Shown here piece by piece: positions 37,470 through 46,996 of a DNA stretch of 64,000 bases; the stretch's first letter is position 1; every line of letters begins with the position of its first letter. A program made the position numbers and the translations under genes. This stretch comes from a virus: positions 1 through 64,000 of the IMG/VR virus record IMGVR_UViG_3300028800_000003; one strand, written 5' to 3'. The notes under the pieces were generated by a model that saw only the letters and a list, made by a program, of their open reading frames with translations, was not told the origin of the DNA and searched no databases.

Positions 37470-38200
37470 CTAAAAAGGGCTCTGAATTCCCGCCGCTCCT
37501 GATGGAGCGCGTCGCCAGGAAAATCGGCAACCAGACCTTCATCGGCTGGGTGCCGGCCGACCCAGTAAGCGCCGAGCGCATTTCCGAGCGCTACCGCGTC
37601 GGCGCCCAAGTCAATTTCACCACCTGGGAGGCGCGCGATCCGCGCAAGCTGCGCCTCTACTGGGCAATCCTGCAAGAGTGCGTCGCCAACGGCGAGAAAT
37701 ACGGCCGCGCCGAAGACCTGCACAACGCAGTCAAGATCGCGCTCGGCTATAAGCGCGAAATCCGCCTGCTCAATGTCGGCGAAACGTCATCGCTATTGAT
37801 GTCGCTTGGCGTCGTGCTCAACAAGATTCGCATGGTCTCGGAGAACAGCGACACCATTTTCGGCAAGCTGATCCGACCGTTGGTGAAACAGGCTTTCGAG
37901 ATCGCCGAGAAGGTCGGCGGCACGGTGAGCGACACCATCATCCTGCCGGGCTCGATCGCACTCGACAAGATGGACGAAGGCGAGTTCCGCATTTTCTTCG
38001 ACCGCGCAATGAACGAATTGCGTCGGGCTGGCTATCCCATCGATGAAATCATGGAAGCCAGCAAACAAAAACTCGCCCGAACTCGGGCGAGACAGACCCC
38101 TCCCCTCAATTACGGAGACAGCAACTATGGGCGAAGCCAAACGCCGCCGCGAGAAGATCGCGGAGTTAAAGACCCAGTCAGTAAAGAAGCAGCGGCATAA
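37466..38200 (+). CDS. DUF1367-like protein
   Basis: R....RLYWAIL...LH..VKI..G...PGSIA.DKMDEGEF..FF. Confidence 0.7.
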   Translation: MTKKGSEFPPLLMERVARKIGNQTFIGWVPADPVSAERISERYRVGAQVNFTTWEARDPRKLRLYWAILQECVANGEKYGRAEDLHNAVKIALGYKREIRLLNVGETSSLLMSLGVVLNKIRMVSENSDTIFGKLIRPLVKQAFEIAEKVGGTVSDTIILPGSIALDKMDEGEFRIFFDRAMNELRRAGYPIDEIMEASKQKLARTRARQTPPLNYGDSNYGRSQTPPREDRGVKDPVSKEAAA

Positions 38201-39059
38201 ACTGCGGCTGATGCCGGTCACGACACAGACCCAGCATCACTTCAAGAATCTGGCCGCCCGCAGCGAGGCGGATTTGAATGCCGGCCTGCCAGAGCGTTCC
38301 GCGTTCGCCTCACGCATCGAATATCGTCGCGCGCTGCATCTCTTTAATCCGGCCGTCGGCGCCGATCCGAAGCTGACCAAACAGATTCCAATCAAGGTCC
38401 GCGCTCATGCGTGGCATCCGCGTCCGCTCGACAAGCCGCCAGGCGCGATCCAACCGCTCGTCCTCGTTCCCGGCCGCAAGCTCGATCCCGATGAGCGGGT
38501 CATTCATCTCCAGGCCGTTGCCGGGTTTGCCTCTGCCGATCCGAAGCGACACCAGCAGGCGCATAATAAGATGCTCCGCATGTTGGACGTGCCGTGCGGC
38601 TTTCGCACGCCGTCTGCCAAGGCGAAGAACTGGCGCAGCACGTCGCTGATCGAACAGGCCTCGATCCGCGCCGGTCTCGCACCGGAGCGCGCGTTTGAAC
38701 CGTCGGCACGCGGTTTGAAAAAGCAGGAAGCCACACAACAGACCAAGGCGCTGATCCACCTGGAACGCCTGATGCGTGACAACGAAGCCCGCGCCATCCA
38801 GGCGCGCAATGATGATCAGAAAGCCAAGTGGTTTGTCGGCAAGGTCATGGCCGCCATGGAGGGCAGCATTAGCCATGAGTGGCTGGAGTCGATCGTGCCT
38901 GAGAAACTGACAGCATTCTACACCCGCCGCTTCAAATACATGAACGCTCCGCGTCGCGCGCGTTACGAATTGTTGCTTGCCGATGCCAAGGCGCGCCAGC
39001 GCGGCGAAAATCTCGACGGTTCGCCGCGGCGCGAGACGATCATGCGGGAAGCTGCGTGA
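38127..39059 (+). CDS. Hypothetical basic protein starting MGEAKRR
   Basis: GGAG RBS; long ORF. Confidence 0.65.
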   Translation: MGEAKRRREKIAELKTQSVKKQRHKLRLMPVTTQTQHHFKNLAARSEADLNAGLPERSAFASRIEYRRALHLFNPAVGADPKLTKQIPIKVRAHAWHPRPLDKPPGAIQPLVLVPGRKLDPDERVIHLQAVAGFASADPKRHQQAHNKMLRMLDVPCGFRTPSAKAKNWRSTSLIEQASIRAGLAPERAFEPSARGLKKQEATQQTKALIHLERLMRDNEARAIQARNDDQKAKWFVGKVMAAMEGSISHEWLESIVPEKLTAFYTRRFKYMNAPRRARYELLLADAKARQRGENLDGSPRRETIMREAA

Positions 39060-39286
39060 CCACGTTCATCACCATTAATAAGCACGTCATTGCGGCCAAT
39101 GCCAAGCATGGCCGTAATGACCCGCCGATCCGCGTCGCCAAGAGCAAAAACGGCAAGGCCGTCTATGCCCGCGGCGTGAAGATCAACGGACCCTCCGAGC
39201 TGATAAGCGGCGACGGCAAACCGGTCCTGAAATGCGGAGCGCGCATTGCGCTTGTTACCGACGCCGATGTCGAGGTGATCGCGTGA
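39056..39286 (+). CDS. Conserved small phage protein
   Basis: I.INKHVI..NAKHG...P...GP...KP.L.CGAR. Confidence 0.75.
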   Translation: MTTFITINKHVIAANAKHGRNDPPIRVAKSKNGKAVYARGVKINGPSELISGDGKPVLKCGARIALVTDADVEVIA

Positions 39287-39645
39287 GAACGATCATCCTC
39301 GGCAATAACGGCCGCTACGAAACGCAAGTGTCTGACGAGGACTATGCGTACCTCGTCCAGTGGCGATGGCAATACAAGCTGTCATCTAAAAGGTATCAAG
39401 GCAGCGCCGACAAGGGCGTCTACGCAAAGCGCACGACGACGGTCAACGGCCGCAAGATCACGTTGCTGATGTCGCATGTGATCCTGGAGCGCATGGGCAA
39501 GCCGCGCCCAGGACCCGATTACGATGCCGACCACGGCGACGATCATTCGCTCAACAATCAGCGCCACAATCTCGGCTGGGTTCACAAGACGCCCAACAGA
39601 GGCAAGGCCTCCAACCGCTCCTGCTACTACGCGGAGGCGGCATGA
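39283..39645 (+). CDS. HNH endonuclease
   Basis: VSDEDY..L.QWRW...YA.R...MSH.I...DH.D..SLNNQRHNL. Confidence 0.85.
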   Translation: MRTIILGNNGRYETQVSDEDYAYLVQWRWQYKLSSKRYQGSADKGVYAKRTTTVNGRKITLLMSHVILERMGKPRPGPDYDADHGDDHSLNNQRHNLGWVHKTPNRGKASNRSCYYAEAA

Positions 39646-39817
39646 CGATCGTGAACCCACTCGACATACAATGCGCTCACCGAGCACACATCAACGATAG
39701 TGTCCAGTGCGACGGAAAAATCTATCAGATCGTAGGAGTTCTACAATACCCAGACTTTCTGGCCGTCGAATGGCCATGGTGGAGATATGCGTTTCGGTTC
39801 TTGCGAAAGGTTCTCCG

Positions 39818-40357
39818 GTGATTCTGAAACCTGGAACCTTCAACGTCAATGAGTACCGCAAGGCAATTCCTGTGTGGGTGAAGCTGCAAGCGTTGATCAA
39901 TTCAATCATTCAGCGCGGCGAACTGCCGCTGAATGATGGCAAGCCGCTCGATGCCCGCGATCTGCAATTCGATCACTGCCCAGCCCTGGTTGATCGGCCA
40001 TACGATACCGTGGCTGGCGATTTCATTCCACAGCAGAACGACCCCGAATTCATCGTCCCGTTGCGCAAGCGCACGCATCTGCAAAAGACAACAGGCCGCA
40101 AGGAGGATGCCGAGCGGACAGTGACGACGCGCGGCAGCGATGTCGGCGAAGCGGCGCGCACGCGGCACATTCAGGACAGCGAGACCATCCACCAGGCGAA
40201 GATGTTGCACCGCGTGGACCCGGATGCGGCACGGCGTCTGCTCGGCAGCGTGCGGCAGAAGACCCGCCTGCGGCCGAAACGCAAGATCGCCAGCCGCGGC
40301 TTCGGCAATCAACATCGTCCCATGCAATCGAGGAAGCGCAACCGTGGCCGGAGTTAG
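39818..40357 (+). CDS. HNH-like protein
   Basis: QFDHCPAL...NDP.FI.PL...H.QKT; GTGA-coupled start. Confidence 0.7.
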   Translation: MILKPGTFNVNEYRKAIPVWVKLQALINSIIQRGELPLNDGKPLDARDLQFDHCPALVDRPYDTVAGDFIPQQNDPEFIVPLRKRTHLQKTTGRKEDAERTVTTRGSDVGEAARTRHIQDSETIHQAKMLHRVDPDAARRLLGSVRQKTRLRPKRKIASRGFGNQHRPMQSRKRNRGRS

Positions 40358-40580
40358 GAACAATCCATGTGTCGAGGCGATCGTTAAGACGCTGCTCGAT
40401 GCCGGCATAAGGCCCGAGGCGCCAGAGGTCACGAAGGGCTGCCACGTCAGGGTGCGCTGGCAGGCGAACGGCAACAAGCGCCAGTATCACACAGGGGCCT
40501 CGCCATCCGACTGGCGAGCCCCGAGGAAGGCGGCATCAGACGTGCGCCGCATGTTGCGCGAAGACGGCTTAGCTCTATAA
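40344..40580 (+). CDS. HicA-fold-like small protein (SPSDWR motif)
   Basis: KGCHVRVRW...GASPSDWRA......VRR. Confidence 0.6.
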   Translation: MAGVRNNPCVEAIVKTLLDAGIRPEAPEVTKGCHVRVRWQANGNKRQYHTGASPSDWRAPRKAASDVRRMLREDGLAL

Positions 40581-40581
40581 A

Positions 40582-40640
40582 AATAACCGGTTATATCTCT
40601 TGACAACCCGCATGTATAACCGCATCTGAGAACCGCGGCA
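40582..40640 (+). promoter_or_regulatory. Promoter of the Tas-like operon with multiple AACCGC/ACCCGC motifs
   Basis: ATAACCGGTTAT palindrome, then TTGACA (40600)-N17-CATCTG. Confidence 0.6.
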
Positions 40641-40662
40641 ATAAACATCGGAGTCAGCCAAG

Positions 40663-41196
40663 ATGAGCCTCACAGAAAATACCGAGCCACGTCGTCGTCG
40701 CCAAAGCCGCCGACGTAACCCAGAGACGCTTGGGGAGTTGCTGGTTTCGCTTCATCAACAATATCCGCGAGCGACCGAGACCGAACTAAAATCCATGCTC
40801 CGCGAGAATGGCAAGGAACGTCCGCAACTGGTCGACGAAGCCTTGGATTTCTGGTCGTCGCTCAATTACCGCAAGCTGATCGTCGCTCCCAATCCTGCCG
40901 GTCAGACATCGCGACCGCAACCGCGAGAGAACATCGAGGGCAGCGCCCAGGCTGCGCGCGTCACCATCCAAACGATTTTCGATACTTTCATGATCGGCGG
41001 CAAGCCGGTCGGCGAATACACGACGCAAGAAGCCATCGGCGTCGGACGCACAAACATCCGCCATGGCTACATTCTTCTGCGCATGGCGCGCGTCGTCGCC
41101 AACCCCGATCCGAATGCCAAGCTGCGCAACATCGTGAAGCTCAACGAAGCGCAGCGCATCATCAAACAAGCGATCGAGGAATCGAATGTCGCGTAA
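40663..41196 (+). CDS. Hypothetical protein, putative partner of the Tas-like gene
   Basis: GGAG RBS; overlaps the start of the Nop-domain gene by 11 nt. Confidence 0.8.
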   Translation: MSLTENTEPRRRRQSRRRNPETLGELLVSLHQQYPRATETELKSMLRENGKERPQLVDEALDFWSSLNYRKLIVAPNPAGQTSRPQPRENIEGSAQAARVTIQTIFDTFMIGGKPVGEYTTQEAIGVGRTNIRHGYILLRMARVVANPDPNAKLRNIVKLNEAQRIIKQAIEESNVA

Positions 41197-42394
41197 GCCA
41201 ACGAAATTGCGAGCGTGCGGTCACCCTGTGTCTTCCCGAAAGAGGCCAAAATCGTCGTCCCGCGCGCTCGCATCCAAAACCGCCTCCGATGACCATTTCA
41301 GGATTGCCCGAAAGGCCGACAACACCCTGTCTTCGGGGGCGGCCACCATTGCAGATGTCGATGATCATGGTTTTATTGTCGCATGCGACCAATCCCAATG
41401 TATCTCAACATCTGCATCCAATTCCGCAGACGATGATCGGTCAATCCGTGCCAATCATGGCCAGCCACAATTTATCTCGTCTGCGGACCTCAAGAAGCGC
41501 ATTGGCGTCATTCATGCGCATTGGCGCAATGCGGTGTTCGCTCGCAAGCAACGCATCCGCATCGGCAACACACTGAGTGCTTTCCTGCGAACTCAACTCG
41601 GCTGGTCGCTCGATAAGAGCGAGAAAGAACGCGAGAAGATCGCGAAACAAGCCGCAAAAATGATCGCCGATGGCGGTGGCGAATGGGCAGAATTTGTTGT
41701 CTCGACAGAGATTTCCATGGCTCCTTGGCAGGACATCGAGTCTCGCCATATCAAGGCGATGGAGAAAATAGCCATCGAATTTCCGGTCTGGTGCGATTTC
41801 GGCAAGCCGGTTCGAGGATTCGGATTGGCATCCTTTGCCAAGATTGTCGCTATGGCCGGCGATCTGTCGCAGTATCCGACGGTCGGCCACTTGCAGAAAC
41901 GTCTTGGAATATCCGTTGTTGACGGTGTCCGTCAGGGCAACCCAGGGAAAGGCGCGACCGCCGACGATTGGATTCGCCATGGCTACAAGCGAACCAACCG
42001 CGCGGAAATCTGGCAGATCGGGGCATCGTTGATAAAGGCTCAGGTCCGCGCTCAGAAGGACGCTGACGGCAAGAAATGCGGCGACAGTCTCGCCGTCGGC
42101 CGTTATGGCGCGATCTATCTGGGTCGCAAGAAACATGAACTGGCGCGGGGCCTCACCCTAAAGCACGCCGACAATCGCGCCAAGCGATACATGGAGAAGT
42201 GTCTGATTCGTGATCTATGGGCGGCATGGCGTCAAGTCATGTCGCTCGGCGCCTTGGTTGATCAGAATGCCAGTGTCGAACAGACCAGTGTTAATTTATC
42301 ACCCAAGGCGCACCCTATTACAGATTTCTATGATCATGGAGAGCGCATCCGAAAGGATCATGGATTACTGTGCGCGTCATACCCCAACGGCTAG
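41186..42394 (+). CDS. IS110/Nop-domain RNA-binding protein without a RuvC or HNH domain (TasA-like)
   Basis: Coiled coil followed by VRGFGLASFAKIVAMAGDLSQYPTVGHLQKRLG, GY....RAEIWQIGASLIK and HADNRAKRYMEK.LIRDLW; no DEDD N-terminal domain; GAGGA RBS. Confidence 0.8.
   Translation: MSRKPTKLRACGHPVSSRKRPKSSSRALASKTASDDHFRIARKADNTLSSGAATIADVDDHGFIVACDQSQCISTSASNSADDDRSIRANHGQPQFISSADLKKRIGVIHAHWRNAVFARKQRIRIGNTLSAFLRTQLGWSLDKSEKEREKIAKQAAKMIADGGGEWAEFVVSTEISMAPWQDIESRHIKAMEKIAIEFPVWCDFGKPVRGFGLASFAKIVAMAGDLSQYPTVGHLQKRLGISVVDGVRQGNPGKGATADDWIRHGYKRTNRAEIWQIGASLIKAQVRAQKDADGKKCGDSLAVGRYGAIYLGRKKHELARGLTLKHADNRAKRYMEKCLIRDLWAAWRQVMSLGALVDQNASVEQTSVNLSPKAHPITDFYDHGERIRKDHGLLCASYPNG
41208..41487 (+). 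ncRNA. TIGR-like stem-loop guide array, four dual-spacer units, inside the 5' part of the Tas-like ORF
   Basis: Units 41208-41272, 41280-41342, 41350-41416 and 41423-41487, each outer stem/YCR-N9-TK/hairpin/CCR-N9-TV/outer stem. Confidence 0.8.
42249..42381 (+). ncRNA. Two further TIGR-like units, one degenerate, inside the 3' part of the Tas-like ORF
   Basis: 42249-42311 fits the unit pattern exactly; 42329-42381 fits partially. Confidence 0.65.
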
Positions 42395-42397
42395 AGG

Positions 42398-42949
42398 TCA
42401 CGACGGCGGTAGCGCCGGTTCGCACACTCGCGAGAAGATATAGCGAAGCGAACGGACCAACGACCTTTCATCAGAATCTGGAATCGGTACTGTCACCAAA
42501 TCCTGATGACATTCCTGATGACCAAAGATGAAATCACAGACTGTGTCAGGATAGAAGCCTTTGACGACGATCCGCATTGGGCGCACTTGAAAGTCCTGCG
42601 TCAGATGGTCGAAGGCAATCGTTGATATTGGGTTGCCCGGTAATTCTCCGTGATACGGCCGCAGCCGATAGGTGCATGGCGTATTCTCGACGTGCTCAAT
42701 GAGCCAGTCGAATTTCTTCTCTGGGCACGAATGAGCATAGCAGCTTGCCACCCCGGTGACTCTTGCGCCGTCGAGCGGCTTTGCAGAGCTTGATGCAGTA
42801 AATGTGTCGAGACGACTGAGCGGCGCATAACTGCGAATGAAGACATTCGCAATCGCTTCAATTCCCGCATCTTCTGAGGGAATTGCCGGCGGCGACCAGC
42901 CGCCCAAGGTTGCGGTGAGTGAAATTATTGCCCATTGCCAGAAGCGCAT
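42398..42949 (-). CDS. Secreted Cys-containing protein (moron-like)
   Basis: Signal-peptide-like N-terminus; opposite strand to its neighbours; lower GC. Confidence 0.65.
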   Translation of the reverse strand: MRFWQWAIISLTATLGGWSPPAIPSEDAGIEAIANVFIRSYAPLSRLDTFTASSSAKPLDGARVTGVASCYAHSCPEKKFDWLIEHVENTPCTYRLRPYHGELPGNPISTIAFDHLTQDFQVRPMRIVVKGFYPDTVCDFIFGHQECHQDLVTVPIPDSDERSLVRSLRYIFSRVCEPALPPS

Positions 42950-43037
42950 GAGTTTCCTGTCTCATTCCGCCCTACCCAGATCATAGTCAGTCAACGGCAA
43001 TCAGCGCAACCGCCTGATCTGCGCGGTTAAATACCCC

Positions 43038-43066
43038 TTGCAAACCGCACGTGACGCGGTTATATA
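43038..43066 (+). promoter_or_regulatory. Promoter with an AACCGC...GCGGTT inverted motif in its spacer
   Basis: TTGCAA-N17-TATATA. Confidence 0.65.
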
Positions 43067-43074
43067 CGGGTGGC

Positions 43075-43300
43075 AGTTAGTGGGGATCGACGAGGCGGGC
43101 GGCTCATTGGAGGCAGTGGCCGCCCGCCAAATCGGTTCCCGAAACGAAAACGCGCCCCAGATCGCTACGGCGGGAGAGCACTCACCGGCTCTAACTCAAA
43201 GCCCGTCGTGCGGTTTGAGACACCCAAAATTGGGCGCGTTTGGCCACCGGACATAAGTCGCCGCGGTTTTGTGGAACCGTCTCGCTTCCGGTGGCCCCCA
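43075..43300 (+). ncRNA. Highly structured non-coding leader or sRNA
   Basis: Stems GGCGGGCGGC/GCCGCCCGCC, AAACGCGCCC/GGGCGCGTTT and GGCCACCGGA/TCCGGTGGCC. Confidence 0.55.
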
Positions 43301-43326
43301 CCAATTCAAAAGGGGCGTGCCGCGCG

Positions 43327-44319
43327 ATGCTGTTTACGGTTATCGATACCGAAACAACCGGGACCAATCCCGAGAACGATGCCCTGATCGACATCGCCGC
43401 CATCGATGTCGAAAATGGCATTGTCAGCGACAAGCCGCGCATTTCTTTCATCAAGCCGCCGATCCCGATCCCGCCAGAAGCGTCGGCCGTGCATCACATT
43501 GTTGATGCCGATGTGGCGCAGGCGCCGCCAGCACGCGAGGCCGTGCCGCTGGTGCTGATACCGGATCGGCCGGCGATCTACGTCGCGCACAAGGCAGACT
43601 TTGAGTACGGCTTCCTGAAAAGCTACTTGCCGGCCGGCTCCACTTGGCTCTGCACCTGGAGGGCGGCTTTGCGCGTCTACCCGAACGCGCCGAATCACAA
43701 ACTCCAGACGCTCCGTTATTTCCTCAACCTGCCAGTCGATCGCGCCATCGCCGACTATGCGCACCGCGCGATGCCGGATGCCTACGTGGCCGCCTATTTG
43801 TTACTCGACCTGCTGACCAAGGCGTCTGTCGAAGACATGCTCGCCTGGACGCGCGAGCCCCCGCGCCTGCCGTTTTGCCCGCTCAATCCGCACCGCGGCA
43901 AGCCCTGGTCTCAGGTGCCCGTCGATTTCCTGATGTGGATCGTCGGCCTGGAGAAACAAAAAGACCGGGACATGGACCCGGACATCATCTGGAACGCGCG
44001 GCTGGAATTGGACCGCCTCGCCATGGCGCAACGCGCGGCGAAGCAAACCGAACGCGACGCCAAAAACGAACTGATCGAAACGGAACGCGAGGCCTACGCC
44101 AAGCTGTTCAAGCAAATTCTCGCCAATCCAGACACCCAGCCGAAGACGGTTGCGGACCTGGAGAACTGGTGGAAGGGCGAGGCCGAGAGCCGCACCAAGT
44201 GGAACATCATCAAAGGCGACCCGCTCTATAGCGAGCTGGCGAAAGCCTGCGCCGACTACAAGAAAACCATCGTTCAACAACAACCGGCAGCGCAGACCAA
44301 TGAGCAAGTCGCAGCATAG
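43327..44319 (+). CDS. Exodeoxyribonuclease X-like DEDDh exonuclease
   Basis: VIDTETTG, VAHKADFE, HRAMPDAY; C-terminal HRGKPWSQVP.DFL.W. Confidence 0.9.
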   Translation: MLFTVIDTETTGTNPENDALIDIAAIDVENGIVSDKPRISFIKPPIPIPPEASAVHHIVDADVAQAPPAREAVPLVLIPDRPAIYVAHKADFEYGFLKSYLPAGSTWLCTWRAALRVYPNAPNHKLQTLRYFLNLPVDRAIADYAHRAMPDAYVAAYLLLDLLTKASVEDMLAWTREPPRLPFCPLNPHRGKPWSQVPVDFLMWIVGLEKQKDRDMDPDIIWNARLELDRLAMAQRAAKQTERDAKNELIETEREAYAKLFKQILANPDTQPKTVADLENWWKGEAESRTKWNIIKGDPLYSELAKACADYKKTIVQQQPAAQTNEQVAA

Positions 44320-44524
44320 CACAGTCGATCAACCACATTTTGTTTGGTGGCGCGGCACTGGCGGAAAGCCGGAACCGCAGAAATGGCAAGGCCTCGACTA
44401 CGGAATCTCCAATTGGAAATTTCCCTACGTCATCGCCGCCTATCCGCTGACGCCTGACGAATCCAAACAGTCGTTGGCTTCGCTGGCGGTTCGCTATCCA
44501 CAACCTGTGAGTGAAAAGCAATGA
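44300..44524 (+). CDS. Hypothetical protein
   Basis: Coupled ORF starting MSKSQHS. Confidence 0.5.
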   Translation: MSKSQHSTVDQPHFVWWRGTGGKPEPQKWQGLDYGISNWKFPYVIAAYPLTPDESKQSLASLAVRYPQPVSEKQ

Positions 44525-44865
44525 ACCCGGTTCGCGATATTTTGCACCAAAGATTCCCGCACTGCTTTGCTGATCGTGGCCAGCCAAAGCGTCCGCTCGC
44601 CATCGGCATCAAGGCTGAGATCGTGAGCCGATGCCCCGATCTGCGCGGCTTCATCGACGCGGCGCTCCGCGATTACACGGGCGGCCCAACTTATCACAAC
44701 GCCTGCTTCATTGGCGCACCGCGCATCAATCTCGATGGCGAGATCGCCGGTCAGGTAACGCCGAAGCACTCCGCGCATCACGCGCGCCGTCTGCACCACC
44801 TGCAACAGAAATGGAAACGCGAGGATGCCAAACGATCTGCCGATCCTGCTTGTCCATCTGTTTGA
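44521..44865 (+). CDS. ProQ/FinO-domain RNA chaperone
   Basis: FPHCF....RPLAIGI...ALRDYT....Y.......RINLDG..AG.VT..H. Confidence 0.88.
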   Translation: MNPVRDILHQRFPHCFADRGQPKRPLAIGIKAEIVSRCPDLRGFIDAALRDYTGGPTYHNACFIGAPRINLDGEIAGQVTPKHSAHHARRLHHLQQKWKREDAKRSADPACPSV

Positions 44866-45007
44866 TGCTGAAACAGGCGAGGTCAAGTGGCGTCCCAAGG
44901 CCGGCGGACGATGGAAGAACGCCAAGAGTGTTTACGACGCCTGCCAACAAGCCGACGCCGTGATGTCTGAACCCCGAGAAATCGAATACGTCGAAAGGAT
45001 GAAATAA
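44825..45007 (+). CDS. Hypothetical protein
   Basis: GAGGA RBS. Confidence 0.45.
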   Translation: MPNDLPILLVHLFDAETGEVKWRPKAGGRWKNAKSVYDACQQADAVMSEPREIEYVERMK

Positions 45008-45013
45008 GCTGCT

Positions 45014-46996
45014 ATGACCACCGTTGTTACGAATAACGATTACACTGGCCAGCCCTGGGACGGTTTGTTGTCCGGTACGCAATGGGCTACCGACAATCTC
45101 ACTTTCAGTTTCCCGACCGATGCCGCCGATTACGATTTCGGGTACATCCAAGGGGCAGGCGCTCCATCGGATAATTTCCAGCCGCTTAGTGCAGCCGAGC
45201 AAACCGCGGTGCTCAATGTCCTGAACGACTATGCCGCGGTCAGCAATCTGACGTTTACTCAGATCACCGAAACCACCGACACGCATGCCAACCTGCGCGA
45301 GGCGCAGTCGTCGGATGCCGGCGCCGCAATGACATTCGCGCCAAACTCGCAGTTCAATGATTATCCGTTGAGCGCGGACTCCTGGTACGAGCCGACTGGT
45401 TTCAGCGACTATGGGGCTTTGGTTTCTGATCCTGTGCTCGGCGGCTACGGCTATCTCGCCTTCACACACGAAATCGGCATTGCGCTCGGGCTCAATGACG
45501 ACGTGCAGGGCAATGACCTGCCGGCGTCCATGGATGCGATGCAGAATTCCGTGGAGTCGTATCGCTCCTATATCGGCGGCCCCACCGATCAGGGTTGGAG
45601 CAACGCAACGTGGGGGTATGCCACGTCGCCGATGCAGGATGACATCGCGGCCATCCAGCAGATGTACGGTGCGAATTTCAGCGGCATCGGAACGTCGGTC
45701 ACGTATTCCTGGAATCAAAACACCGGCGAGGAATCGATCAACGGCGTCGGCCAAGGCGTGCCGGGCGGTAATGCGATCTTCTCCACCGTCTGGGATCAAG
45801 GCGCCACCACGACCTACGACCTATCGAACTATTCGACCAACGAGGTTGTCGATCTGCTGCCGGGAGCGTGGAGCACGTTCGATACGGCGCAGCTCGCCAA
45901 TCTCGGCAACGGCAATGTGGCTCCCGGCAACGTCGCCAACGCCCTTGAATATGATGGCAACACCTCGTCCGACGTGACGCATGTCATCGGCGGCTCTGGC
46001 CATAACCTCATCATCGGCAACAATGCCGGCGATACGATCTACGGCGGCTCGAACGGCGGCAACATCATCGTGGCCGGAGCAGGCAGCAACACGATCGACG
46101 GCGGCGCTGGCGGCGACAACACCTTGGTCCTCCCCGGCAGCTTCATCGATTACCAGATATCCGACTCAAACGGCGTTCTCCAAATCGGCTCGAACCAAGT
46201 CACCGACGTGCAGGACATCCAGTTCGGTGCCGAGACGGTCAGCGCCCATGACATCGTCAATGCAGTCAGCGTGCAAGGCGGGACGATGGATGCCGGCTTC
46301 GGCAACTTCTCCGGCGTCGCTGGCGAGAATGGCGACATGCTGCTGCGCAACGGCGCTGGCGTGCTCACAATCTACGACGTGAGCAACAACACCGTGACCG
46401 GCTCATCCAACGTCGGGCAAATCGGCTTCAACATGCAGGTGCTCGGCTACGGAGATTTCTCCGGCCGCTCCGGCGAGACCGATATGCTGATGCAGGATAC
46501 CGGCAGCGGCGCCATGGAGGTCTACGACTTCACCGACAACACCCTCACTGGCTACGCCTCGATGGGGCAGGTCGGCACAGAGTGGAAAGTCCTCGGCTTC
46601 GGTGACTTCTCCAGCAATCCCGGCGAGACCGATATGCTGATGCAGGATAGCAACAACGGTGCCTTGGAATATTACGACATCGCCGGCAACACGATCACTG
46701 CTGCCGGCGGGATGGGACAAGTCGGCCTGGAATGGTCGCTGGTCGGGTTCAGCCCCGTCAACGGCGGCACGACCGACATGCTCATGACCGATAAGTCCAC
46801 CGGCGCCATGGAGATGTATGGCATCGCCAACAACACCATCGTATCGGCGCAACCGTGGTTCGGTCAGGAGGGCGATCAACTGGTACAGGCGATGGCAGCA
46901 TTTGCCGCGCCAAGCGGCCCGGCCTTGTCCAATCCGACCCACGACCCTGTCATCCAGCAACAGCCGGCGCCATTCGCTGTAGGCAAGGCGATCTGA
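45014..46996 (+). CDS. Serralysin-like (M10B) protein with RTX-like and FG-GAP-like repeats; degenerate Zn site
   Basis: LTFSFP, HEIGIALGLND (canonical HEIGHALGLxH), PMQDDIAAIQQMYG, TVWD.G, GGxGxN repeats, GDFS..SGETDML repeats. Confidence 0.85.
   Translation: MTTVVTNNDYTGQPWDGLLSGTQWATDNLTFSFPTDAADYDFGYIQGAGAPSDNFQPLSAAEQTAVLNVLNDYAAVSNLTFTQITETTDTHANLREAQSSDAGAAMTFAPNSQFNDYPLSADSWYEPTGFSDYGALVSDPVLGGYGYLAFTHEIGIALGLNDDVQGNDLPASMDAMQNSVESYRSYIGGPTDQGWSNATWGYATSPMQDDIAAIQQMYGANFSGIGTSVTYSWNQNTGEESINGVGQGVPGGNAIFSTVWDQGATTTYDLSNYSTNEVVDLLPGAWSTFDTAQLANLGNGNVAPGNVANALEYDGNTSSDVTHVIGGSGHNLIIGNNAGDTIYGGSNGGNIIVAGAGSNTIDGGAGGDNTLVLPGSFIDYQISDSNGVLQIGSNQVTDVQDIQFGAETVSAHDIVNAVSVQGGTMDAGFGNFSGVAGENGDMLLRNGAGVLTIYDVSNNTVTGSSNVGQIGFNMQVLGYGDFSGRSGETDMLMQDTGSGAMEVYDFTDNTLTGYASMGQVGTEWKVLGFGDFSSNPGETDMLMQDSNNGALEYYDIAGNTITAAGGMGQVGLEWSLVGFSPVNGGTTDMLMTDKSTGAMEMYGIANNTIVSAQPWFGQEGDQLVQAMAAFAAPSGPALSNPTHDPVIQQQPAPFAVGKAI

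What the first reader, a model, noticed from the sequence alone, without database searches (positions are those of the whole stretch)
41186..41487. Guide array embedded in the reading frame of its own effector gene (dual-coding DNA)
Seen: the only in-frame ATG upstream of the conserved core is at 41186. It has a GAGGA RBS and overlaps the upstream gene's end. The frame stays open through all four hairpins (about 100 codons of low-complexity, Ser/Arg-rich peptide) before the helical core starts near 41490; the next in-frame ATG (41660) would cut off the coiled coil. Inference: the mRNA is also the pre-guide RNA, so processing the guides would destroy the message (built-in negative feedback), and spacer changes must avoid stops in this frame.
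Basis: partly seen in the sequence, partly recalled or inferred. Interest (0 to 1): 0.8.

Follow-up and report, generated by a model that had tools for sequence, protein, structure and literature searches.

The report
Guide RNAs inside phage tasA gene
A soil phage writes four hairpin guide RNAs of its RNA-guided DNA-binding system (TIGR-TasA) in frame at the front of the gene for the protein that uses them; this is real, but a 2026 preprint already described the arrangement in kind.

Summary
ORF 41186-42394 encodes a nuclease-free Tas protein: Nop fold plus coiled coil, with best structural matches TIGR-TasR 9mty and TasH. Codons 8-101 are four stem-loop tigRNA units (41208-41487), and a fifth unit (42249-42311) lies in the 3' tail. 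No canonical in-frame start exists between GTG 41228 and GTG 41537, and 41537 is already inside the conserved first helix. ATG 41186 has a GAGGA site and overlaps the upstream gene's stop.

In this window alone the open frame is weak evidence, because frame +1 is open too. The family supplies the test. Of 124 usable related loci, 57 have an array abutting the core. Where a start codon follows the last unit, the Tas frame carries stops in 8 of 16. Where none follows, it carries stops in 1 of 41, against 20 and 28 of 41 in the other two frames.

So the 5' array is dual-use DNA, read as a disordered tail. The proposed negative feedback is untested.

bioRxiv 10.64898/2026.09.09.750476 already reports intragenic stem-loop arrays that keep the frame, and it suggests a link to translation. 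This scan has also reported the same arrangement on other DNA. Verdict: a new member of a known kind.

The parts
40663..41196 (+). Upstream 177-aa ORF, translationally coupled to tasA. Its C-terminal ~75 aa are conserved directly upstream of tas in relatives.
   Evidence: ORF list. No Pfam or PHROG family. tblastn finds residues ~98-177 immediately upstream of the tas core in 9 of 160 fetched loci.
41176..41180 (+). GAGGA ribosome-binding site, 5 nt before ATG 41186.
   Evidence: Read in the sequence.
41186..42394 (+). tasA ORF, 402 aa: a nuclease-free TIGR-associated protein.
   Evidence: ORF. PHROG 4285 at 1.6e-13. PDB profile hit 9mty_A at E 7.9e-16. Foldseek top hits are TIGR-TasR and TasH.
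41208..41272 (+). Unit H1: 13-bp stem with degenerate box motifs (CCC..CC / CCA..UC).
   Evidence: (z -4.61).
41280..41342 (+). Unit H2: stem | CCA-9 nt-UG | 9-nt loop | CCG-9 nt-UG | stem.
   Evidence: (z -2.93).
41350..41416 (+). Unit H3: stem | UCA-9-UG | 10-nt loop with a small inner helix | CCA-9-UA | stem.
   Evidence: (z -4.14).
41423..41487 (+). Unit H4: stem | UCG-9-UG | 10-nt loop | CCA-9-UA | stem. It ends in codon 101, where the core helix begins.
   Evidence: (z -4.41).
41480..42274 (+). Folded TasA core (aa 99-363): coiled-coil helices plus the Nop-type C-terminal domain.
   Evidence: AlphaFold2 gives block pLDDT of 91-98 over most of aa 101-360, with dips to 65-69 at aa 241-270 and 83 at aa 351-360. 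It is conserved across relatives.
42249..42311 (+). Unit H5: stem | UCA-9-UG | 9-nt loop | CCA-9-UA | stem. It lies inside the 3' tail of the ORF.
   Evidence: (z -4.11).
42319..42380 (+). Possible sixth unit, degenerate. Its 5' part is 79% like the start of H3, and it has no closing stem.
   Evidence: Repeat D3. Fold z -0.89.

Best explanation
This is a stem-loop TIGR-TasA system of a phage in which the 5' part of the guide array has become part of the tasA coding sequence.

Translation most likely starts at ATG 41186. That codon has a GAGGA site and is coupled to the upstream gene. The ribosome then reads through four tigRNA units as a roughly 100-residue disordered N-terminal tail. It reaches the coiled-coil/Nop core at about nt 41480.

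Each unit is a hairpin built as stem, box C, 9-nt spacer, box D, loop, box C, 9-nt spacer, box D, stem. Each would give one dual-spacer guide that directs a TasA dimer to an 18-bp DNA site.

Shown here: the protein family, the unit architecture, the absence of a downstream canonical start, and family-wide selection for a stop-free Tas frame wherever the start lies upstream of the array.

Inferred: guides and message come from one transcript. If so, cutting out guides separates the start codon from the core and ends translation. Ribosomes and TasA would also compete for the same hairpins.
For: Protein:
- PDB profile hit to 9mty_A at E 7.9e-16.
- The AlphaFold2 core (aa 99-363) is confident, while aa 1-91 and 374-402 have pLDDT below 50.
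- Foldseek ranks 1-10 are TIGR-TasR and TasH. IS621 and ISCro4 follow.

Units:
- Fold z-scores are -2.9 to -4.6.
- RNAalifold on 10 units (5 from the window, 5 from L082) predicts 16 pairs, and 14 of them show compensatory changes.
- In the 80 viral relatives the + strand is dominated by CCA-N9-CG/TG twice (120 and 72 of 1243 candidates), matching the published box set.

Start codon:
- There is no canonical in-frame start between 41228 and 41537.
- No sigma-70-like site was found in 40300-42800, 0 against 1.5 expected.

Family:
- 124 usable loci came from 161 sources.
- 55 loci lack a start within -45..+15 of the core. All 55 have an upstream in-frame start.
- In 31 of these 55, at least one unit lies between even the nearest start and the core.
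- Abutting arrays without a downstream start have frame-0 stops in 1 of 41, against 20 and 28 of 41 in the other frames (Fisher 1.6e-10; against frame +1 alone 1.2e-6). With a downstream start the figure is 8 of 16.
- Embedded units are as well formed as non-coding ones: 23 of 37 against 195 of 385 have perfect boxes.
- L082 and L001 repeat the window's layout.

Literature: passages of 10.64898/2026.09.09.750476 report intragenic arrays at the 5' end, 3' end or inside tas. They keep the frame and map to disordered regions, and BlTasA intragenic tigRNAs were seen by small-RNA sequencing.
Against: - In the window itself frame +1 is also open across the array, so its own open frame could be chance.
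- The array lacks the codon-position GC pattern of the core (0.525/0.564/0.545 against 0.606/0.442/0.645). The peptide shows no sign of protein-level selection.
- 69 of 124 relatives start right at the core, so the tail is dispensable.
- The window's boxes depart from the published CNA/YG set (UCA, UCG, and box D UA). H1 is degenerate.
- No CUU is present in the three linkers (read).
- There is no expression or processing evidence for this DNA.
- No spacer target was found in the 119.7-kb contig above shuffled controls: 10 hits with up to 4 mismatches against 2-9 in the shuffles.
- The related loci are not phylogenetically independent, so the Fisher values overstate significance.
Confidence: 0.75

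Rival explanations
1. The array is a structured 5' leader, not coding. TasA would start downstream of 41487 at a non-canonical codon or at GTG 41537, and the open frame would be incidental.
For: Frame +1 is open too, so stops are rare in this array for compositional reasons. The array has no codon-position GC signature. 69 of 124 relatives make a protein that starts at the core.
Against: There is no ATG, GTG or TTG between 41228 and 41537, and no Shine-Dalgarno-like run before the ATC/ATT codons near 41474-41510. GTG 41537 would delete the first 18 residues of a helix that is conserved and modelled at pLDDT above 95. In relatives that lack a downstream start, the Tas frame is open in 40 of 41 while the other frames are not.
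Confidence: 0.1
2. The DNA is dual-use but the RNAs are separate. Guides would come from their own promoter(s) or a different transcript isoform, so there is no coupling between guide processing and TasA translation and no feedback.
For: The preprint's discussion says genomic sequence cannot settle co-transcription and that embedded promoters are possible. At the 3' side, read-through of units looks passive: frame 0 has a stop in 20 of 64 and frame +1 in 23 of 64. Overlap as such therefore need not be regulatory.
Against: No sigma-70-like promoter was found in 40300-42800. This is a weak test, because phage promoters of other types are not covered. The units sit 22 nt after the start codon on the same strand, so any tasA mRNA must contain them.
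Confidence: 0.3
3. The embedded units are decaying relics of an array that now serve only as a flexible linker. The working guides would lie elsewhere.
For: H1 has degenerate boxes, and H3-H5 carry UCA/UCG and UA variants instead of CCA/YG. The candidate H6 has lost its stem.
Against: Four of the five units keep 11-13 bp stems of different sequence, with z about -4. 14 of 16 pairs show compensatory change. The same GAUGA-YCA unit style recurs in L082, which suggests a clade-specific motif rather than decay. Family-wide, embedded units are not worse formed than non-coding ones. No other array was seen in the stretch scanned, 38186-45394.
Confidence: 0.1

Closest known systems
Intragenic stem-loop TIGR arrays, including Bifidobacterium longum BlTasA (bioRxiv 10.64898/2026.09.09.750476; passages read)
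   Same: Stem-loop tigRNA units lie inside the tas coding sequence without breaking the frame. They fall in regions predicted to be disordered. The authors suggest a link between tigRNA maturation and Tas translation.
   Different: In BlTasA the intragenic units map to the internal wedge loop. Here they form the whole N-terminal 100 residues, and the only good start codon lies upstream of them. The box motifs here are UCA/UCG...UG and CCA...UA, and the linkers carry UCCAAU-like words rather than CUU. I could not see the paper's figures, supplementary table or TIGRSafari, so I cannot tell whether this locus is in their set.
Stem-loop TIGR array with TasA from a Peromyscus leucopus gut contig (PMC12045711, section 9 and Fig. 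7 legend; passages read)
   Same: Nuclease-free TasA with a coiled coil and a C-terminal RNA-binding domain. [quoted passage not shown] Each unit is processed into one guide.
   Different: That array is described as subarrays beside the gene. The passages I read do not mention coding overlap.
TIGR-TasR (PDB 9mty) and TasH (9vzx, 9w02-9w04)
   Same: Best structural and profile matches to the core: Foldseek E 5.7e-07, TM 0.55 on the target, and profile E 7.9e-16.
   Different: Those proteins carry RuvC or HNH nuclease domains and use dual-repeat 36-nt tigRNAs. This protein has no nuclease domain and uses hairpin units of about 65 nt.
IS110-family recombinases with bridge RNA (IS621 8wt6/8wt9, ISCro4 9t56)
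   Same: The RNA-binding Nop-like domain is shared (Foldseek ranks 12-14; PHROG 4285 'transposase'). The guide RNA is encoded just 5' of the gene.
   Different: There is no DEDD/RuvC domain. There is an array of several units instead of one two-loop bridge RNA. No transposon ends were sought or seen.

Membership tests
TIGR-Tas (stem-loop type, TasA) | Tas protein with a Nop-type RNA-binding domain and a coiled-coil dimerisation helix pair | tested here: met
   Profile hit 9mty_A at E 7.9e-16. The AF2 model has long helices at 99-137 and 165-196 plus a helical C-terminal domain. Foldseek ranks 1-10 are all TasR or TasH.
TIGR-Tas (stem-loop type, TasA) | No nuclease domain (TasA rather than TasR or TasH) | tested here: met
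   No Pfam family at E <= 0.1. Residues 1-91 are predicted disordered. The 9mty alignment covers only chain residues 142-296.
TIGR-Tas (stem-loop type, TasA) | Tandem hairpin units next to tas, with variable palindromic stems | tested here: met
   Five units have stems of different sequence. 14 of 16 consensus pairs are compensatory across 10 units.
TIGR-Tas (stem-loop type, TasA) | [quoted passage not shown] | tested here: inconclusive
   The geometry fits in H2-H5: 3+9+2, a loop of 9-10, then 3+9+2. The letters fit only in part: H2 has CCA/TG and CCG/TG, and H3-H5 have TCA or TCG/TG and CCA/TA. Relatives show the canonical CCA/YG pairs. L082 shares the window's variant.
TIGR-Tas (stem-loop type, TasA) | CUU trinucleotide at the stem base or linker (reported processing mark; frequent, not obligatory) | tested here: not met
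   The linkers, taken with two flanking stem letters on each side, read CA-UCCAAAA-CC, GG-CCACCAU-UG and CA-UCCAAU-UC. None holds CUU.
TIGR-Tas (stem-loop type, TasA) | Array transcribed, processed into unit-length RNAs and bound by Tas | not testable with these tools
   No RNA run is listed for this DNA. The contigs that were laid are DNA and identical to the window.
Intragenic tigRNA arrangement (preprint 10.64898/2026.09.09.750476) | Units inside the tas CDS, frame kept, lying in disordered segments | tested here: met
   Units H1-H4 occupy codons 8-101 and unit H5 occupies codons 355-376. There is no in-frame stop. pLDDT is below 50 for aa 1-91 and 374-402.
IS110-family RNA-guided recombinase | N-terminal DEDD/RuvC-like catalytic domain | tested here: not met
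   No Pfam hit. The N-terminus is disordered. Structural matches to IS621 and ISCro4 are weaker than those to Tas proteins.

The most novel reading that the evidence does not exclude
Moving the start codon upstream of the array is a recurrent, selected switch that makes tasA self-limiting. TasA, or the RNase that matures guides, acts on hairpins lying between the only start codon and the core. Each guide released then kills one message, and TasA bound to nascent hairpins blocks ribosomes. This would give a guide-to-protein ratio control with no separate regulator. The contrast found here fits such a functional 5' arrangement: strong stop avoidance at the 5' side (1 of 41) and none at the 3' side (20 of 64 against 23 of 64). 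It does not prove it.
Probability: 0.25. Interest if true: 0.6.

Novelty: new member of a known kind. Interest (0 to 1): 0.35.

Why it matters
The locus is a clean natural example of one DNA stretch serving two roles. It carries four guide RNAs, and it is the only route by which ribosomes can reach the effector's folded core.

The arrangement itself is already in print as a preprint, so this locus adds an example rather than a new kind. What this analysis adds is quantitative:
- In this TasA clade the embedded state goes with loss of the core-proximal start codon.
- The Tas frame is kept stop-free only in that case.
- 3' overlaps look passive.
- Embedded units are as well formed as free ones.

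For anyone engineering TIGR-Tas, native loci of this type cannot be split into 'array' and 'ORF' parts without thought. Re-targeting the spacers also changes the protein's N-terminal tail and must avoid stop codons.

Tried and rejected
- Rfam scan of 39000-44000 at E <= 1 gave no family.
- Pfam gave nothing for the Tas ORF.
- RNA evidence: no RNA holder is listed. Laying the contigs of four DNA runs gave only identical pieces and no variants or indels, so natural variation could not be used.
- Spacer targets: 18-nt words were built in both possible geometries from the five units and scanned over the 119.7-kb contig. They gave 10 hits with up to 4 mismatches. The best hit lies inside unit H3 itself. 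Shuffled spacers gave 2-9 hits, so there is no self-target above chance. I could not decide the correct geometry from the paper's passages, so I tried both.
- A naive outward pair count from the box anchors failed because of bulges. RNAalifold replaced it.
- Period test: unit periods that are multiples of three are not significantly commoner inside the Tas ORF (30 of 52) than outside (73 of 153, p 0.26). Both exceed one third. This is unexplained and gives no support for a frame-keeping rule on unit length.
- The box-C phase of embedded units is 2, 59 and 42 of 103 for phases 0, 1 and 2. This is circular as evidence, because 'embedded' was defined by an open frame.
- The first hairpin finder was too permissive, so I tightened it.
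- My motif-anchored finder misses units with bulges, for example two in L001. I therefore used the union with a generic hairpin finder.
- Rows dropped before the counts: 37 of 161. These were 17 duplicates, 10 with the core N-end not aligned, 9 with the ORF running off the contig and 1 with under 150 nt upstream.
- I did not run complex prediction, the search of protein representatives or the protein-atlas search. None would bear on where translation starts.
- Supplements, figures and TIGRSafari were not visible, so I cannot say whether this locus is already catalogued.
Full report
**What is there**

The window is the first 64 kb of a single 119.7-kb contig. Around the finding, the neighbouring genes look like phage genes. 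They include a NinB/Orf recombination mediator, an HNH endonuclease and a DnaQ-like exonuclease.

ORF 41186..42394 (+, 402 aa) follows a 177-aa ORF (40663..41196) and overlaps it by 11 nt. GAGGA lies 5 nt before its ATG.

Region 41186-41487 folds into four hairpins:
- H1 at 41208-41272.
- H2 at 41280-41342.
- H3 at 41350-41416.
- H4 at 41423-41487.

The whole region has an MFE of -109 kcal/mol. Shuffles give -86.4 +/- 4.95, z -4.57, and 0 of 100 shuffles fold as well. The single units give z -4.61, -2.93, -4.14 and -4.41.

A fifth unit (H5, 42249-42311, z -4.11) begins right after the conserved core, inside the 3' tail of the same ORF. A sixth candidate (42319-42380) resembles the start of H3 but has no closing stem (z -0.89).

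**The protein**

- Pfam gives nothing.
- PHROG 4285 'transposase' matches aa 181-365 at 1.6e-13.
- A profile of 20 relatives hits PDB 9mty_A at E 7.9e-16.
- The AlphaFold2 model is confident over most of aa 99-363: block pLDDT is 91-98, with dips to 65-69 at aa 241-270. It falls below 50 for aa 1-91 and 374-402.
- Foldseek ranks 1-10 are TIGR-TasR (9mty) and TasH structures. The IS110-family recombinases IS621 and ISCro4 come next, followed by weak Prp31/Nop matches.
- There is no nuclease domain.

This is therefore a TasA-type protein.

**The units**

Passages of PMC12045711 describe stem-loop TIGR arrays. [quoted passage not shown] They are found with TasA proteins that have a coiled coil and a C-terminal RNA-binding domain.

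H2-H5 parse as stem | 3-nt box C, 9-nt spacer, 2-nt box D | 9-10-nt loop | box C, 9-nt spacer, box D | stem. The box letters are:
- H2: CCA/UG and CCG/UG.
- H3-H5: UCA or UCG/UG and CCA/UA.
- H1: degenerate.

In 80 viral relatives the canonical combinations dominate the + strand. CCA/CG twice occurs 120 times and CCA/TG twice 72 times among 1243 anchored candidates.

The sister locus L082 shares the window's GAUGA-YCA style. RNAalifold on ten units (five from the window, five from L082) predicts 16 pairs, and 14 of them show compensatory changes.

**The specific claim: is the array inside the reading frame?**

In-frame canonical starts are ATG 41186 (with the ribosome site), TTG 41207 and GTG 41228. 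The next is GTG 41537, which lies 45 nt inside the conserved first helix.

The model's first helix starts at residue 99, and H4 ends in codon 101. A protein with an intact core must therefore start upstream of at least H2-H4.

The window alone does not prove this:
- Frame +1 is also stop-free across the array. Only frame +2 carries stops, which come from the repeated GATGA motif.
- The array lacks the codon-position GC pattern of the core.

**Family test**

I fetched 80 viral loci and 80 metagenome loci. I located the core start with an HMM of the relatives; state 52 corresponds to nt 41489.

Of 161 sources, 37 were dropped. These were 17 duplicates, 10 with the core N-end unaligned, 9 with the ORF running off the contig and 1 with too little upstream sequence. 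That left 124.

Start position:
- 69 loci have a canonical start within -45..+15 of the core start.
- 55 do not, and all 55 have an in-frame start further upstream.
- The open frame upstream of the core has a median of 99 nt in the first group and 321 nt in the second (Mann-Whitney p 6e-10).
- In 31 of the 55, at least one detected unit lies between even the nearest such start and the core.

Arrays abutting the core (57 loci):

| Start codon after the last unit? | Loci | Stops in Tas frame | Stops in frame +1 | Stops in frame +2 |
|---|---|---|---|---|
| Yes | 16 | 8 | 8 | 9 |
| No | 41 | 1 | 20 | 28 |

- With a downstream start, the Tas frame looks like the other two frames.
- Without one, Fisher's test gives 1.6e-10 for the Tas frame against both other frames.
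- Against frame +1 alone it gives 1.2e-6.
- These loci are related to each other, so the p-values are generous. The contrast is still plain.

Other family results:
- Embedded units are not degraded. 23 of 37 have perfect boxes, against 195 of 385 non-coding upstream units, and stem scores are equal.
- The 3' side shows no such selection. Frame 0 has a stop before the end of the first downstream unit in 20 of 64 loci, frame +1 in 23 and frame +2 in 42. Overlaps such as H5 therefore look like passive read-through.

**Close parallels**

- L082 (38% identity) has ATG plus a ribosome site at 167 and no proximal start. It carries three hairpins in its 76-codon N-terminal extension (z -6.32) and two more units after the core.
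- Box-C-to-box-C periods are 69, 72 and 72 nt in the window and 72 and 72 nt in L082. The ATG-to-core distances are 303 and 228 nt, which differ by 75 nt.
- Because the units sit in the same codon phase, the two tails share peptide words that are simply the translated RNA motifs.
- L001 has the same order as the window: conserved upstream-gene C-terminus, ATG with a ribosome site, two units, then the core.

**Mechanism**

Shown:
- The family of the protein.
- The unit architecture.
- The lack of a downstream canonical start.
- Family-wide stop avoidance at the 5' side.

Inferred: one transcript serves as both message and guide precursor. Excising guides would then cut the start codon off from the core, and ribosomes and TasA would compete for the hairpins.

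On this inference:
- No promoter-like site was found between 40300 and 42800 (0 against 1.5 expected). That scan covers only sigma-70-type sites.
- No RNA data exist for this DNA.
- The preprint's discussion leaves both routes open.
- No spacer target was found in the contig, so what the guides aim at is unknown.
- The preprint reports that nuclease-free and catalytically dead Tas proteins act as RNA-guided transcriptional repressors (title and passages). That is the most likely activity here, by family membership only.

**Comparison and novelty**

The passages I searched in the 2025 paper do not mention coding overlap. The only paper in the library holding both 'tigRNA' and 'intragenic' is bioRxiv 10.64898/2026.09.09.750476. 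Its passages make four points:
- Stem-loop arrays can lie within tas at the 5' end, the 3' end or internally without disrupting the frame.
- They usually fall in disordered regions.
- BlTasA intragenic tigRNAs were recovered by small-RNA sequencing.

Earlier follow-ups in this scan reached the same verdict on other phage DNA. Other notes on this same contig already describe the Tas reading, the 3' units and the upstream gene.

Verdict: a new member of a known kind. The added value is the family statistics above and a clade-specific unit variant.

Noticed in passing
window 40663-41196: The C-terminal ~75 residues of the upstream 177-aa ORF are conserved immediately upstream of the tas core in 9 of 160 fetched loci (for example L081, L094, L023 and L001). 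This suggests a conserved partner gene of this TasA clade. It has no Pfam or PHROG family.
   Followed up: partly
window 42249-42380: A fifth well-formed unit and a degenerate sixth lie inside the 3' tail of the tasA ORF. Family-wide, such 3' overlaps show no stop avoidance in the Tas frame (20 of 64 against 23 of 64 in frame +1).
   Followed up: yes
window 41273-41279, 41417-41422; L082 322-327: The linkers between units carry a conserved UCCAA(A/U) word in the window and in L082, rather than the CUU mark reported for other stem-loop arrays. It may be a clade-specific processing site.
   Followed up: no
L001-L080, units outside the Tas ORF: Unit-to-unit periods are enriched for multiples of three even outside the Tas ORF (73 of 153, chi-square p 7e-4). 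Either those arrays overlap other ORFs or unit lengths are constrained for another reason.
   Followed up: partly
L002 (tail of 522 nt), L017-L019 (tail of 336 nt): In some relatives the Tas ORF reads through three to six downstream units before the first stop. These are long 3' embedded arrays.
   Followed up: partly
L081 173-453: Four units lie upstream of the conserved C-terminal domain of the partner gene. They may therefore sit inside that gene's N-terminal part, as earlier notes of this scan reported for other phages.
   Followed up: no
window 41100-41574: Frame +1 of the array region is also completely stop-free (95-aa ORF 41289..41576). I found nothing to suggest that it is used.
   Followed up: no
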